DNA from: a virus
Lineage: Duplodnaviria; Heunggongvirae; Uroviricota; Caudoviricetes
Virus record (IMG/VR): IMGVR_UViG_3300029190_000033
Location: 1 to 5,495 of that record
Strand: one strand, 5' to 3'
Length of the DNA: 5,495 bases
The translations under genes and the position numbers were made by a program. Below are positions 79-5,495 of the stretch, piece by piece (within the stretch, counting starts at the first letter, position 1; each line of letters opens with the position of its first letter). The notes beneath the pieces were generated by a model, which saw only the letters and a program-made list of their open reading frames with translations, made no database searches and had not been told where the DNA came from.

Positions 79-107
79 TTGACCAATAGTTAAAGAAATC
101 TTAAATT
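79..107 (+). promoter_or_regulatory. Candidate PL-like early promoter: -35 TTGACC (79-84), 17-nt spacer, -10 TAAATT (102-107)
   Basis: Sigma70-like hexamers with 17-bp spacing, read directly; lies about 190 nt upstream of the N-like gene and upstream of the nut-like site; overlapped by an operator-like palindrome. The -10 matches consensus at only 4/6. Confidence 0.4.
89..106. promoter_or_regulatory. Candidate repressor operator (OL-like), P22 c2-type 18-bp site GTTAAAGAAATCTTAAAT
   Basis: 15/18 match to the P22 operator consensus ATTTAAGATATCTTAAAT as I recall it; right half ATCTTAAAT is exact. Overlaps the spacer and -10 of the candidate promoter. Further ATTTAAG half-sites at 54-60 and 105-111. 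Confidence 0.4.
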
Positions 108-152: not shown

Positions 153-194
153 GGCTCTTTAACATTGATGGGATTGTCCCGCCGAAATGCGGGA
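153..194 (+). promoter_or_regulatory. Candidate nutL: boxA GGCTCTTTAACA (153-164) plus boxB-like hairpin TCCCGC / CGAAAT / GCGGGA (177-194)
   Basis: GCTCTTTAACA matches the boxA consensus (rrn-type GCTCTTTAACAA); a 6-bp stem with 6-nt purine-rich loop follows 12 nt downstream; sits between the candidate promoter and the N-like gene as in lambda and P22. Confidence 0.5.
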
Positions 195-301
195 ACCAAA
201 GAGTAGTTGGCTTTGGGGTGACGTGAAGTGCAGCTGCACGACGGCAACCGGAAGATAAGCACCCGGCGCGTCACCGCCAAAGTCAATCATCGGAGGTCAA
301 C

Positions 302-574
302 ATGACAGTAGTCATTACATATCTGGCTGACGATAACGCCAGAAATCGCCGCAGAGCACGCAGACAGGCTCAACGTGAGCAGGCAATGCAAGAACAGCGA
401 CTGGCGCGAAAAATTGCGCTAAAGCTCTCTGGTTGCGTCAGAGCAGACAAAGCAGCATCACTCGGAAGCCTTTGCTGCAAGGAAGAAGATGAACGCAGTG
501 GAAGTATTTGCCTGCCAAACGTAGCCATTTACGCGGCAGGATACCGGAAATCAAAACAACTGACGGCGAGGTAA
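302..574 (+). CDS. N: N-family transcription antitermination protein (P22 gene 24 / lambda N-like), 90 aa
   Basis: RBS GGAGG 5 nt before ATG 302. N-terminal arginine-rich motif DNARNRRRARRQAQREQ resembles the lambda N motif (AQTRRRERRAEKQAQ); the MTVVITY start resembles P22 gp24 as recalled. First gene after the nut-like site. Confidence 0.85.
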   Translation: MTVVITYLADDNARNRRRARRQAQREQAMQEQRLARKIALKLSGCVRADKAASLGSLCCKEEDERSGSICLPNVAIYAAGYRKSKQLTAR

Positions 575-864: not shown

Positions 865-1335
865 ATGACAAAATCATGGAGCGTACCTTTTCCTGAATCA
901 GAAACTGAACATGATGGAATGCCTGTTTTCTGGAGATTCCAGGCGACAGTTGAAGAAGATGGAATCAAAATATTCGCACTTCAATATATAGCTTTTCATC
1001 AGACAGAGCATTATGCATGGTTGGTTCCTGCGCATTGGATTGTTAATTTTAAACCAGCACCAAATCGGTGGTTACAGGAATGGAAACAAAAGAGAAATAG
1101 ATATGCAATTAAGAAAGTAGCAAAAAATGCAGAAAGATCTTTTGCATTCCCAACGAAGAAACTTGCCATTGAAAGTTTATTGCGCCGGAAGAAATACCAT
1201 TTGATGAGAATCAAACAAGATTTGGCTGTTGTATCAACTCTTGTTGATGGGATGAAGAATATTGATACATCAACACCAGATATTGAATATAACTTTGAAC
1301 ACAACAAAGAAACAGAAAATTGGGTATTTTATTAG
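865..1335 (+). CDS. Hypothetical protein, 156 aa, AT-rich moron-like gene between N and cIII
   Basis: Clean ORF with GAGG RBS 6 nt before ATG 865. Visibly lower GC than flanking genes (roughly 35-40% versus about 50% by eye). No predicted transmembrane segment, so not SieB-like. Followed by an inverted repeat and an intrinsic terminator. Confidence 0.7.
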   Translation: MTKSWSVPFPESETEHDGMPVFWRFQATVEEDGIKIFALQYIAFHQTEHYAWLVPAHWIVNFKPAPNRWLQEWKQKRNRYAIKKVAKNAERSFAFPTKKLAIESLLRRKKYHLMRIKQDLAVVSTLVDGMKNIDTSTPDIEYNFEHNKETENWVFY

Positions 1336-1439: not shown

Positions 1440-1464
1440 GCCCTCCAGTGTGAGGGCCTTTTTA
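1440..1464 (+). terminator. Rho-independent terminator (tL-like): GCCCTC / cagtgt / GAGGGC then CTTTTTAT
   Basis: Perfect 6-bp GC-rich stem, 6-nt loop, immediate T5 run, in noncoding DNA between the moron ORF and cIII. A weaker hairpin CGCTTC / ACTC / GAGGCG + TTTT lies at 1480-1499. Confidence 0.6.
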
Positions 1465-1529
1465 TATGCATACCAATAACGCTTCACTCGAGGCGTTTTC
1501 GTTATGCAATCAAACAGAAGGAGCATCCT

Positions 1530-1956: not shown

Positions 1957-2553
1957 ATGAGCAAAGAATTTTATGCAAGGCTGGCAGCCATTCAGGAGAA
2001 TCTGAACGCGCCAAAGAATCAGTACAACTCATTCGGCAAATATAAATACAGAAGCTGCGAAGACATTCTTGAAGGCGTTAAGCCGTTACTGAATGGCCTG
2101 TTTTTATCAATCAGCGATGAAGTTGTGTTGATTGGTGATCGGTATTACGTGAAAGCAACGGCAACTATTACTGATGGCGAAAACAGTCATACAGCAACCG
2201 CTCTTGCACGAGAGGAAGAAAGCAAGAAAGGAATGGATTCTGCACAAGTTACGGGCGCTACAAGCTCTTATGCACGCAAGTATTGCCTCAATGGTTTGTT
2301 CGGCATTGATGATGCGAAAGATGCAGATACCGACGAGCATAAACATCAGCAGAACGCAGCAGCAAAGCAATCAAAACCATCACCTACACCTGAACAGGTT
2401 CTAAAAGCATTCACTGACGCAGCATTGCAGAAAAACNNNNNNNNNNNNNCGTTCGCCAAAGCGTGGAAGATGCTCGAAGGCACACCGGAGCAGCACAAAG
2501 CGCAGGACGTTTACAACATCAGACGAGACGAATTAGAAGGAGCGGCTGCTTAA
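1957..2553 (+). CDS. erf: Erf-family single-strand annealing recombinase (P22 essential recombination function), 198 aa
   Basis: N-terminal region MSKEFYARLAAIQENLNAPKNQYNSFGKYKYRSCEDILEGVKP...GATSSYARKYCLNGLFGIDDAKDAD closely matches P22 Erf as I recall it. Contains 13 masked bases (2437-2449); frame is maintained across them. Confidence 0.9.
   Translation: MSKEFYARLAAIQENLNAPKNQYNSFGKYKYRSCEDILEGVKPLLNGLFLSISDEVVLIGDRYYVKATATITDGENSHTATALAREEESKKGMDSAQVTGATSSYARKYCLNGLFGIDDAKDADTDEHKHQQNAAAKQSKPSPTPEQVLKAFTDAALQKNXXXXXFAKAWKMLEGTPEQHKAQDVYNIRRDELEGAAA
2437..2449. other. Run of 13 N (masked bases) inside erf
   Basis: Literal n characters; the erf frame continues across them, suggesting 1:1 masking. 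Confidence 0.95.
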
Positions 2554-3721: not shown

Positions 3722-4203
3722 CTGGACATGCAACAATCCTCGACATGCGCTGTGGCAGTCGCATGTTCTGGTTCGATAAGAATGACGGCCGGGCGATATT
3801 TAGCGATATCAGAAAGGAAGAGCACACATTGTGTGATGGACGACGGCTGATAATTAGCCCTGACCTGATAGCAGATTTTCGTGCATTACCATTTGCAGAC
3901 GCATCGTTTCCGGTTGTTGTATTCGACCCTCCGCATCTTGAGCGTGTTGGTGATAACGCCTGGATGGGAAAGAAATATGGACGGCTGAATAAAGATACCT
4001 GGCGTGATGATTTGCGGCAGGGATTTAAAGAAGCCTTTCGTGTGTTGCGGCCATACGGCGTTCTGATTTTTAAATGGAATGAAACGCAAATACCTGTTCG
4101 CCAGATATTGGCACTGACCGACAGAAAGCCTGTTATCGGTCAACGAACAGGAAAGGGTGACAAGACCCACTGGATTATTTTTATGAAGGAGGGCAACCAG
4201 TGA
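3718..4203 (+). CDS. Putative SAM-dependent (DNA) methyltransferase-like protein, 161 aa, motif VVVFDPPH
   Basis: Strong RBS AAAGGAGG 6 nt before GTG 3718. Hydrophobic strand followed by DPPH fits the (D/N/S)PP(Y/F/W/H) catalytic motif of N6-adenine/N4-cytosine methyltransferases. Protein is small for a methyltransferase, so the call is tentative. Confidence 0.45.
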
Positions 4204-4969
4204 GCAAGATTGACTATCAGGCACTGCGTGAAAAAGCAGAGAAAGCAACTAAAGGAAGCTACATCGNNNNNNNNNNNNNNNNNNNNNNNNCGGCAATTTA
4301 ACAGGAGTTTTTGTTTGTCAAAAATGGAAAGGAGAGCCAGGTGGCGTGATTGCAGAATGTCACGTTAACTGCCTGGTTGAAACAGATGCTCAGGCTTATG
4401 CAAACGCAGAATTCATAGCAGAGGCTAACCCAGCTACCGTACTGGCACTACTGGATGAACGGGAAAGAAACCAGCAATACATCAAACGCCGTGACCAGGA
4501 GAACGAGGATATTACGCTAACGGTAGGGAAGCTGCGTGTTGAGCTTGAAGCAGCAGAGAACAACCTTATTGATAGTGAATGCCATGTTGCTGAACTGGAA
4601 GAAGCGCTACGCGATAAGCAGGCGTTACTTGAAGCCTCAGAAAAGCGCAACGCAAAATTACAAAGCGAGAATGCATACATCCGCAACCGGTTCAAAGAAC
4701 TGGACCTATTAATGGGGAAAAACATTCTGGTCATGCAGGCTGCCATTATCGAATGGCAGGCAACTGGCGACGCTAAGAGCGGACTAGCATGGATTTATAA
4801 CACACTGTTTGGCCCTGGCGAATTACCGGACGAATCTGAGAAAGATGCTCAGGCCTACTTTAATCGCAAATATGCACCGATTGACGAAAAGCTTATGGCG
4901 CTTCACAAGTGGTTTTGGGAACAAAGTGAAGCCGAGCGCGCCGCTGGCATTGGCATCAAAGGAGAGTGA
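4200..4969 (+). CDS. Ead/Ea22-like phage protein, interrupted by 24 masked bases; coiled-coil C-terminal half
   Basis: RBS AGGAGG 7 nt before GTG 4200. N-terminus [21 protein letters not shown] and downstream AQAYANAEFIAEANPATVLALLDERE are typical of Ead/Ea22-like proteins as recalled. Reading frame before the N-run differs from the frame of the long ORF ending at 4969, so the true start is uncertain (could be 4346). Confidence 0.6.
4267..4290. other. Run of 24 N (masked bases) inside the Ead/Ea22-like gene
   Basis: Literal n characters; the frames on either side are not the same. Confidence 0.95.
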
Positions 4970-4970
4970 T

Positions 4971-5495
4971 ATGAGCACTATCACTAAAGAACGTATCGAA
5001 TTGTTCATTAAATCCCCGCTTGAAAACGGGCTTACCCGTGGCGAACAAATGGAACTGGCACGAATTGCACTGGCATCGCTGGAAGCAGAGCCTGTAAGCC
5101 AAGCTTACAACTTGGCAGAATTAATCGAAGGCATGGAAGTTTCCATTGATGTAAGCACTTGTGATGCTGATTTAGGTAATCGCTATTTCGGCACCGTCAC
5201 CGAGGCGTTAGAACTTGATACAGCCAAGAATGGTTACATCCTCCTGGTTCAGGACGCAGAGCCAAACTTCGATGTAAATGGCAACTCTCCGGTAACTCCG
5301 GATAGCTGGATCTCCCGCTTCGAAGAAATGCCGGATCCGTCTAGCGAAAGGCGCGTGTGTGCGTTCACACCTACCAACCATGAAGATATGCGCTACCGCT
5401 TCGTGCCCGCCTCGCTCTTTAAGACAGTTTGCAGAGACGCGACCCACTGGTTTTATATGCTTCCGCCAGTAGGGCGGGAGGAGGTTGCAGGTGGC
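4971..5495 (+). CDS. Hypothetical protein, 5' part only (175 codons, open to window end)
   Basis: Not in the ORF track; manual translation from ATG 4971 (MSTITKERIELFIKSPLENGLTRGEQMELARIALASLEAEPV...) has no stop through 5495. Perfect RBS AAGGAG 6 nt upstream, 1 nt after the previous stop. Confidence 0.65.
   Translation, partial: MSTITKERIELFIKSPLENGLTRGEQMELARIALASLEAEPVSQAYNLAELIEGMEVSIDVSTCDADLGNRYFGTVTEALELDTAKNGYILLVQDAEPNFDVNGNSPVTPDSWISRFEEMPDPSSERRVCAFTPTNHEDMRYRFVPASLFKTVCRDATHWFYMLPPVGREEVAGG

What the first reader, a model, noticed from the sequence alone, without database searches (positions are those of the whole stretch)
153..194. nutL-like site with a boxA identical to the rrn-type consensus
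The boxA-like GCTCTTTAACA is closer to the E. coli rrn boxA than lambda's own nut boxA is. The boxB-like hairpin has a 6-nt loop (CGAAAT) rather than lambda's GAAGA pentaloop, although the N protein carries a lambda-like arginine-rich motif.
Basis: partly seen in the sequence, partly recalled or inferred. Interest (0 to 1): 0.45.

Follow-up and report, generated by a model that had tools for sequence, protein, structure and literature searches.

The report
Known nutL antitermination site, HK620 type
This is the ordinary "N-utilisation" RNA signal that lets a lambda-like phage's N protein carry RNA polymerase past terminators, and the same 42 bases were annotated as nutL in coliphage HK620 in 2001.

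Summary
GCTCTTTAACA lies at 154-164. A 6-bp hairpin, TCCCGC/GCGGGA (177-182/189-194), has the loop CGAAAT (183-188).

The interpretation as nutL is also correct, but it is not new. Window 153-194 is base-for-base the feature annotated "nutL; putative N-utilization leftward" in HK620 (AF335538).

- **Second copy.** The same boxA core and hairpin recur after cro as nutR in HK620 and JEP4. In 75 of 83 related viral contigs there is one copy on each strand, flanking at least three different immunity regions.
- **Conservation.** The nutR spacer varies, while boxA and boxB do not.
- **Specificity module.** Against HK629, VT1-Sakai and phi21, the leader is identical through boxA. It differs in the spacer, boxB and N codons 1-32, then matches again. 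BoxB and the arginine-rich motif therefore swap together.

The two "unusual" points are ordinary. Phi21-type phages have the identical rrn-like boxA and P22 a near-identical one. Phi21's boxB also has a 6-nt loop. The arginine-rich motif is not specifically lambda-like (7/22 identical).

One addition: diverged relatives have loops CGAAAU, CGAGAU, AGAGAU and AGGAAU, that is N-GNRA-U. This suggests a true GNRA tetraloop closed by a C·U or A-U pair, for which I found no structural study.

The parts
79..107 (+). Probable pL promoter (-35 TTGACC, 17-nt spacer, -10 TAAATT). Transcription would start near 113-114.
   Evidence: Consensus scan. Lining up the HK620 and window sequences, the HK620 pL feature (L001 2973-3008) ends about six bases beyond this -10. 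Function is inferred.
154..164 (+). boxA, GCTCTTTAACA: the predicted NusB-NusE(S10) binding element on the nascent RNA
   Evidence: Single exact match against 0.01 expected. Identical to the rrnB leader boxA core. The same core is in HK620 and JEP4 nutR and in phi21-type nutL. It is nearly invariant across roughly 150 nutL/nutR copies of this class; one search lists a few diverged relatives with GCTCTTTAAAA.
165..176 (+). Spacer between boxA and boxB (TTGATGGGATTG)
   Evidence: Read from the sequence. The nutR spacer varies in sequence and length between relatives while the flanking elements do not. In lambda and H-19B the spacer is the NusA-contacted segment (PMC3526286).
177..194 (+). boxB hairpin: stem 177-182/189-194, loop 183-188 CGAAAU. 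Predicted binding site of the N arginine-rich motif.
   Evidence: structure. (same hairpin at nutR). (swaps together with N codons 1-32). (loop N-GNRA-U and the upper four stem pairs invariant; base pairs covary UA/UG/CG).
196..287 (+). Structured N leader. A small hairpin (196-201/211-216) competes with a long-range helix (206-225/267-287) for the CTTTGG at 211-216. This looks like the counterpart of the lambda N-leader helix.
   Evidence: The base of the helix is kept in 9/9 relatives with 2 compensatory pairs. The inner part differs in each lineage yet remains self-complementary. A role in RNase III processing or N autoregulation is inferred from my knowledge of lambda.
302..574 (+). N antiterminator gene (90 aa). 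The arginine-rich motif NARNRRRARR is residues 12-21, nt 335-364.
   Evidence: Pfam PF25694 N_peptide, E = 5e-15. 93-100% identical to HK620-type N proteins. The motif core is invariant across diverged relatives.
1440..1503 (+). Two tandem intrinsic terminators upstream of a 56-aa ORF (1530-1700) in the cIII position. These are the barriers that N-modified polymerase must pass.
   Evidence: Terminator scan. Homologous to the features annotated tL2A and tL2B in HK620.

Best explanation
Window 153-194 is the nutL site of an HK620-type N antitermination module in the early-left operon of a P22-like/lambdoid coliphage.

Proposed mechanism:
1. RNA polymerase starting at pL transcribes the site.
2. 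On the nascent RNA, single-stranded boxA (154-164) is bound by host NusB-NusE.
3. The boxB hairpin (177-194) is bound by the N-terminal arginine-rich motif (about residues 9-28) of the N protein encoded just downstream (302-574).
4. With NusA and NusG, and through N's C-terminal polymerase-binding segment, the RNA-tethered complex makes polymerase resistant to termination.
5. Polymerase then reads through the tandem terminators at 1440-1503 into the genes beyond them, which include erf and abc2.

Shown here: the anatomy, the duplicate nutR copy, sequence conservation, and joint inheritance of boxB with the arginine-rich motif. Inferred from lambda, P22, phi21 and H-19B work: the protein contacts and the readthrough itself.

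The boxB loop is best read as a GNRA tetraloop (GAAA) flanked by a C·U mismatch. This is the same layout as phi21's hexaloop, a tetraloop-like fold closed by a C·C pair. That reading is an inference from sequence variation only.
For: - Identity to the annotated HK620 nutL over 42/42 bases.
- The annotated HK620 nutR and the JEP4 cro-cII interval carry the same boxA core and the same hairpin.
- 75/83 IMG/VR loci with this N have exactly one boxB on the N strand and one on the opposite strand. The spacings are 1.14, 1.68 or 1.73 kb, so the pair flanks at least three different immunity regions.
- The nutR spacer varies while boxA and boxB are invariant.
- The alignment with HK629, VT1-Sakai and imm21 is identical through boxA. 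It diverges in the spacer, boxB and N codons 1-32, then becomes conserved again.
- Each arginine-rich motif class has its own boxB.
- In 164 loci with the motif N.RNRR[RK]A[RK]R, every boxA-linked hairpin found has a loop N-GNRA-U and the invariant upper stem CCGC/GCGG. One nutR from a later scan (Pantoea piersonii, L217) has a C·A mismatch in that stem.
- Stem-base pairs covary: UA 4, UG 4, CG 3.
- N hits Pfam N_peptide.
- Homologues of HK620 tL2A and tL2B lie downstream.
- General mechanism and the role of the N C-terminal domain in H-19B N: PMC3526286.
- NusB:NusE binds rrnG boxA at 5-8 nM, against about 80-90 nM for lambda nut boxA: PMC2800207.
Against: - No experiment on this particular motif-boxB pair was found in the held literature. 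The HK620 annotation itself says 'putative'.
- Covariation in the stem is modest: 2 pairs with double changes, and 23/500 shuffles do as well. The upper stem and loop are conserved as sequence.
- The window does not contain nutR, so the twin-site argument rests on related genomes.
- Rfam has no family that matches. That result is uninformative, not negative.
- Four of 83 loci carry this N without the site, so the N gene can exist uncoupled from it.
Confidence: 0.9

Rival explanations
1. The perfect rrn-type boxA works largely on its own. It would recruit NusB/NusE (and SuhB/S4) as in rRNA operons to suppress Rho-dependent termination without N, and the hairpin would be secondary.
For: The boxA core is 11/11 identical to rrnB. 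NusB:NusE binds rrn boxA about tenfold tighter than lambda nut boxA (PMC2800207).
Against: The element order is boxA then boxB, as in lambda. In the rrnB leader a hairpin I take, from memory of the rrn literature, to be boxB precedes boxA. The hairpin is as strictly conserved as boxA and is inherited together with the N arginine-rich motif. An N gene follows directly. The barriers downstream are intrinsic terminators, which rrn-type complexes are not known to overcome (my knowledge). This rival could coexist with the main explanation as a minor contribution.
Confidence: 0.07
2. The hairpin at 177-194 is not the N target. It would be a processing or stability element (for example for RNase III) or a pause/termination hairpin, and the true boxB would lie elsewhere in the leader.
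For: The leader contains other strong structures, at 114-130, 132-151 and 206-287. The 42-nt segment as a whole is not unusually stable (z = -0.65).
Against: Only the 177-194 hairpin recurs after cro in nutR, where the rest of the leader is absent. It lies 12 nt (nutL) to about 14 nt (nutR) after boxA, against 8-10 nt in lambda, P22 and phi21. It has no U-tract. It is replaced by phi21's boxB exactly where N's motif is replaced by phi21's.
Confidence: 0.02
3. The boxA match and the hairpin occur together by chance and have no function.
For: None beyond the short length of the elements.
Against: The exact boxA is expected 0.01 times per window. The boxB pattern CCGCNGNRATGCGG is expected 0.05 times even with one mismatch allowed. 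Both are conserved in more than 150 independent loci and duplicated at nutR.
Confidence: 0.01

Closest known systems
Coliphage HK620 nutL/nutR with HK620 N (GenBank AF335538, annotated 2001)
   Same: Window 153-194 equals the HK620 nutL feature at 42/42 bases. The position relative to N is the same (148 nt to the ATG). N is 93% identical. The tL2A/tL2B terminators are homologous.
   Different: The immunity region and pL operators upstream of about position 106 differ. There the window matches JEP4, N7 and CUS-3 instead. The genes downstream of N also differ. These are mosaic differences outside the nut site.
Phage phi21 nutL and N (also VT1-Sakai, HK629, mEp235)
   Same: The boxA and its 5' leader are identical (GGCTCTTTAACAT). 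The spacer is two bases shorter in the phi21 type. The boxB loop is also 6 nt. The leader after boxB is homologous, and N residues about 33-60 are shared. In the solved phi21 complex the hexaloop CUAACC forms a tetraloop-like fold closed by a C·C pair (PMC12550061). C-GAAA-U can be read the same way.
   Different: The stem and loop sequences differ (CTCAAC-CTAACC-GTTGAG against TCCCGC-CGAAAT-GCGGGA). The arginine-rich motif differs (GTAKSRYKARRAELIAERR against DNARNRRRARRQAQREQ; 5/25 identical). The two are therefore almost certainly separate specificity classes.
Phage lambda nutL/nutR with lambda N
   Same: The order is boxA-spacer-boxB on the pL transcript upstream of N. The loop is purine-rich and of GNRA character. 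The 5' arm of the leader helix, GGCTTTGGGG, is shared. The mechanism is presumed to be the same.
   Different: Lambda boxA is CGCTCTTA, one T shorter (9/11 to rrn). Lambda boxB has the 5-nt loop GAAGA closed by U-A. Lambda N has Trp18, which from my knowledge stacks on the loop; the window N has Ala at the aligned position. Motif identity is only 7/22.
Phage P22 nutL with gp24
   Same: P22-like genome context (erf, abc2). BoxA is CGCTCTTTAACTT. The N C-terminus is related (57% over residues 47-90).
   Different: P22 boxB is GCGCU-GACAA-AGCGC, a pentaloop with the third base looped out (PMC12550061). The arginine-rich motif is different (6/25).
E. coli rrn leader antitermination signal
   Same: The boxA core GCTCTTTAACA is identical.
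   Different: In the rrnB leader a hairpin I take to be boxB lies upstream of boxA and no phage N is involved. Here boxB follows boxA and an N gene follows the site.

Membership tests
Lambdoid N-utilisation (nut) site | A boxA element matching CGCTCTT(T)A in the early transcript, downstream of the early promoter | tested here: met
   GCTCTTTAACA at 154-164, about 40 nt after the predicted pL start. Identical to the boxA of phi21-type nutL sites.
Lambdoid N-utilisation (nut) site | A short boxB stem-loop a few to about 15 nt 3' of boxA | tested here: met
   6-bp stem with a 6-nt loop at 177-194, 12 nt after boxA. -10.5 kcal/mol, z = -3.8.
Lambdoid N-utilisation (nut) site | A second copy (nutR) with the same boxB, downstream of cro on the rightward transcript | tested here: met
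   The window itself does not reach that region. The copy is present in HK620 (annotated nutR), in JEP4, and in 75/83 related loci.
Lambdoid N-utilisation (nut) site | A cognate N protein with an N-terminal arginine-rich motif, encoded downstream of nutL | tested here: met
   ORF 302-574 hits Pfam PF25694 N_peptide at E = 5e-15. The motif NARNRRRARR is at residues 12-21.
Lambdoid N-utilisation (nut) site | The boxB type tracks the arginine-rich motif type across phages (specificity pairing) | tested here: met
   The motif N.RNRR[RK]A[RK]R always occurs with CCGC-N-GNRA-U-GCGG. The phi21, P22, lambda and YYZ-2008 motifs each have their own boxB.
Lambdoid N-utilisation (nut) site | N- and Nus-dependent readthrough of downstream terminators | not testable with these tools
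   Only the terminators themselves can be seen (1440-1503). A reporter assay is needed.
Lambdoid N-utilisation (nut) site | Direct, specific binding of the N motif peptide to boxB RNA | not testable with these tools
   No solved structure matches this N by sequence. No binding study was found.
Lambda/P22-type pentaloop boxB (GNRA fold with one extruded base) | A 5-nt loop G-N-R-N-A or G-N-N-R-A closed by a U-A pair | tested here: not met
   The loop is 6 nt, CGAAAU, closed by C-G. Lambda and P22 loops are shown.
phi21-type hexaloop boxB | A 6-nt loop whose inner four bases form a tetraloop-like fold flanked by a pyrimidine-pyrimidine pair | tested here: inconclusive
   The loop length is met. 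The variants CGAAAU, CGAGAU, AGAGAU and AGGAAU fit N-GNRA-U, with position 1 able to pair with U6 when it is A. The fold itself cannot be tested here. The loop sequence differs from CUAACC.
rrn-type (N-independent) antitermination signal | Order boxB-boxA-boxC in an rRNA leader, with no phage N | tested here: not met
   The order here is boxA then boxB, followed by an N gene. The rrnB leader is shown.

The most novel reading that the evidence does not exclude
The HK620-type boxB may represent a fourth, structurally unsolved way for an arginine-rich peptide to recognise boxB. It would be a genuine GNRA tetraloop (GAAA, GAGA or GGAA) sitting on a non-Watson-Crick C·U closing pair, which is A-U in some relatives. 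It would be read by a motif that lacks lambda's Trp18. In effect this is lambda-like loop chemistry in phi21's hexaloop architecture. A perfect rrn boxA could additionally lower the need for Nus factors.
Probability: 0.5. Interest if true: 0.3.

Novelty: already known. Interest (0 to 1): 0.12.

Why it matters
For genome annotation it matters little. The site can be labelled nutL by identity to HK620.

Its modest value is comparative. This motif-boxB pair is common: 491 relatives in IMG/VR, including Stx-converting phages. It travels as a compact specificity cassette between phages that have different immunity regions and different N C-terminal modules. As far as I could find, it has never been studied biochemically.

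It would be a convenient fourth orthogonal peptide-RNA pair alongside lambda, P22 and phi21 for tethering tools. It is also a natural test of how closing-pair geometry affects recognition of a GNRA loop.

Tried and rejected
- **Rfam.** A scan of the whole window at E <= 1 gave no hits, so no curated family covers nut sites here.
- **Solved structures.** A PDB sequence search with N found nothing even at E <= 10.
- **Literature.** Three searches for HK620 boxB/nut work found only general nut papers and genome papers. The HK620 genome paper and the phi21 NMR paper are not held, so I could not check what their authors said about the loop.
- **Species genomes.** The genome-contig scan with an N alignment returned only 5 loci, two of them from evidently mis-binned MAGs. 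It added one Pantoea nutL/nutR pair and two loci with no nut site within the 300 nt searched upstream of N.
- **Other leader hairpins as boxB.** Rejected. None recurs at nutR.
- **The boxA-like GCTCTTTAAGA at 5414 as a third nut site.** Rejected. It has one mismatch, lies inside an ORF, has no cognate hairpin, and about 0.09 such matches are expected by chance.
- **Whole-leader covariation.** RNAalifold on the leader aligned poorly in the variable centre, so only the base of the long helix could be scored.

Full report
**What is in the window.** The window is the early-left operon of a P22-like/lambdoid coliphage.
- Positions 1-620 match Escherichia phage JEP4 at 95%. From about position 106 they match HK620, HK630, HK140, ECP1 and many Stx-converting phages at 96-98%.
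- The ORF at 302-574 is an N antiterminator (Pfam N_peptide PF25694, E = 5e-15).
- Downstream lie an ERF recombinase, Abc2 anti-RecBCD, an Ead/Ea22-like protein and others.
- A sigma-70-like promoter sits at 79-107. Two tandem intrinsic terminators sit at 1440-1503. These correspond to the features annotated tL2A and tL2B in HK620.

**Checking the observation.**
- GCTCTTTAACA occupies 154-164. It is the only exact copy in the window, against 0.01 expected.
- TCCCGC (177-182) and GCGGGA (189-194) form a perfect 6-bp inverted repeat around CGAAAT.
- The hairpin folds at -10.5 kcal/mol with z = -3.8. It persists in the fold of the whole 194-nt leader.
- The E. coli rrnB leader reads TGCTCTTTAACAA, so the window matches the 11-nt core perfectly. 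Lambda nutL, CGCTCTTAAAAA, matches 9 of 11.

**What it is.** The GenBank record of coliphage HK620 (AF335538) annotates a 42-nt feature "nutL; putative N-utilization leftward". Its sequence, GGCTCTTTAACATTGATGGGATTGTCCCGCCGAAATGCGGGA, is identical to window 153-194.

The same record annotates nutR just after cro. It reads CGCTCTTTAACAGTCATGGTCCTCATTCCCGCCGAAATGCGGGAAT. That is the same boxA core and the same hairpin with a different spacer. JEP4 has the immunity region closest to the window's, and it carries TTGCTCTTTAACA...TTCCCGCCGAAATGCGGGAA at the same place.

Related viral contigs agree.
- Of 83 loci holding this N, 75 have exactly one copy of the hairpin on the N strand and one on the opposite strand.
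- The two copies are 1.14, 1.68 or 1.73 kb apart, so they flank at least three different immunity cassettes.
- Across these loci the nutR spacer changes at several positions, while boxA and boxB do not.

A twin site at the two canonical positions, conserved where the neighbouring sequence drifts, is the signature of a functional nut pair.

**BoxB and the arginine-rich motif are inherited together.** HK629, VT1-Sakai and lambda imm21 carry phi21-type N proteins. Aligned with the window, their leaders show a clear pattern:
- identical from the transcript start through boxA (GGCTCTTTAACAT);
- divergent in the spacer and boxB;
- about 80% identical through the rest of the leader;
- divergent again in N codons 1-32;
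- conserved from codon 33 onwards.

The hairpin is therefore replaced exactly where the RNA-binding motif of N is replaced. A table of nutL sites and N proteins shows one boxB per motif class:

| Phage type | boxB (stem-loop-stem) |
|---|---|
| lambda | GCCCT-GAAGA-AGGGC |
| P22 | GCGCT-GACAA-AGCGC |
| phi21 type | CTCAAC-CTAACC-GTTGAG |
| YYZ-2008 type | GGCT-GAAAA-GCC |
| window type | TCCCGC-CGAAAT-GCGGGA |

Conversely, N proteins with the window's motif carry at least three unrelated C-terminal modules. The motif plus boxB is thus the unit that travels.

**The two "surprises" are ordinary.** The rrn-type boxA is what phi21-type phages have exactly, and P22 nearly. Lambda is the outlier. 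A six-base boxB loop is also known. In the solved phi21 complex (PDB 1NYB) the hexaloop CUAACC forms a tetraloop-like fold closed by a non-canonical C·C pair (PMC12550061).

The motif is "lambda-like" only in the generic core. It shares 7/22 residues with lambda and 5-8/25 with the other classes. It has Ala where lambda has Trp18.

**What the comparison adds.** I scanned viral contigs for boxA followed by CCGC-N6-GCGG. I then restricted the hits to loci that encode the motif N.RNRR[RK]A[RK]R. This gave 11 distinct hairpins in 164 loci.
- The loops are CGAAAU (most), CGAGAU, AGAGAU and AGGAAU.
- G2, A5 and U6 of the loop are invariant. Positions 3 and 4 are each A or G in this set, which fits N-GNRA-U. 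Position 1 is C or A.
- When position 1 is A it can pair with U6, leaving a plain GNRA tetraloop.
- The four upper stem pairs never vary in these 11 hairpins. One nutR from a later scan (Pantoea piersonii, L217) has a C·A mismatch there.
- The lower pairs covary: UA 4, UG 4, CG 3 at one pair, and CG 7, UG 4 at the next.
- The covariation statistics are modest (23/500 shuffles do as well). That is expected for a short element recognised partly by its sequence.

My reading is that this boxB is a GNRA tetraloop closed by a C·U mismatch. That matches phi21's architecture with lambda-like loop chemistry. It is an inference from sequence only. I found no biochemical or structural study of this pair.

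**How it most likely works.** This follows the lambda paradigm and H-19B work (PMC3526286; PMC2800207).
1. BoxA RNA binds NusB-NusE.
2. BoxB binds the N arginine-rich motif.
3. NusA contacts the spacer and N.
4. The C-terminal segment of N binds polymerase. In the window this segment (CLPNVAIYAAGYRKSKQLTAR) is about 91% identical to that of HK97/H-19B-type N over residues 69-90.
5. The looped complex carries polymerase through tL2A and tL2B into the cIII-position ORF and the recombination genes.

A boxA identical to rrn should bind NusB-NusE roughly tenfold tighter than lambda's. The functional steps are inferred and were not shown here.

**Rivals.**
- N-independent, rrn-style action of boxA alone is unlikely as the main role. 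The element order is lambda-like, the hairpin is as conserved as boxA, and the barriers downstream are intrinsic terminators.
- A different leader hairpin acting as boxB is excluded, because only 177-194 recurs at nutR.
- Chance is excluded by the conservation data.

**Verdict.** Interest is low. The small residual novelty is the N-GNRA-U loop rule and the unsolved structure of this recognition class.

Noticed in passing
L219 (mEp213, JQ182733) 30879-32636 and 31512-31525, - strand; also L004, L044, L045 and L216: mEp213 has two N genes in its pL operon. The first is a lambda-type N with a lambda nutL. About 1.2 kb further on is an HK620-type N, about 98% identical to the window's at the DNA level. 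No intact cognate boxB exists anywhere in the 44-kb genome. Upstream of the second N, the 5' half of the tL2A terminator hairpin (TTTGCCCTCC) is fused to the 3' half of boxB (GAAATGCGGGAAC). This marks an old recombination junction inside boxB. The orphan arrangement recurs in other contigs, including a 49%-identical relative.
   Followed up: partly
window 196-287: A long-range helix (206-225 with 267-287) closes the N leader. Its 5' arm GGCTTTGGGG is shared with lambda. The base pairs are kept in 9/9 relatives. The inner part differs in each lineage yet stays self-complementary. CTTTGG at 211-216 can alternatively pair with CCAAAG at 196-201. This looks like the counterpart of lambda's N-leader RNase III / N-autoregulation structure; that assignment comes from my own knowledge and was not tested.
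   Followed up: partly
window 5414-5424: A second boxA-like sequence, GCTCTTTAAGA (one mismatch), lies inside the ORF that runs off the 3' end of the window. No cognate boxB follows it. About 0.09 such matches are expected by chance, so it is probably coincidental.
   Followed up: no
window 2437-2449 and 4267-4290: Runs of N (13 and 24 bases) interrupt the erf-like ORF and the ORF starting at 4200. They look like masked or unassembled stretches, not real sequence.
   Followed up: no
window 302-574 and loci L098-L213: N proteins that share the window's arginine-rich motif carry at least three unrelated C-terminal modules...CLPNVAIYAAGYRKSKQLTAR...RIYYRKPRSEMGVTCVGRQKMKLGSKPLI and ...HIIK. The RNA-binding and polymerase-binding parts of N therefore reassort independently.
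   Followed up: partly
window 865-1335: A 156-aa ORF between N and the tL terminators has no Pfam match. It occupies the region where HK620 has hkaQ/hkaP and P22 has sieB.
   Followed up: no
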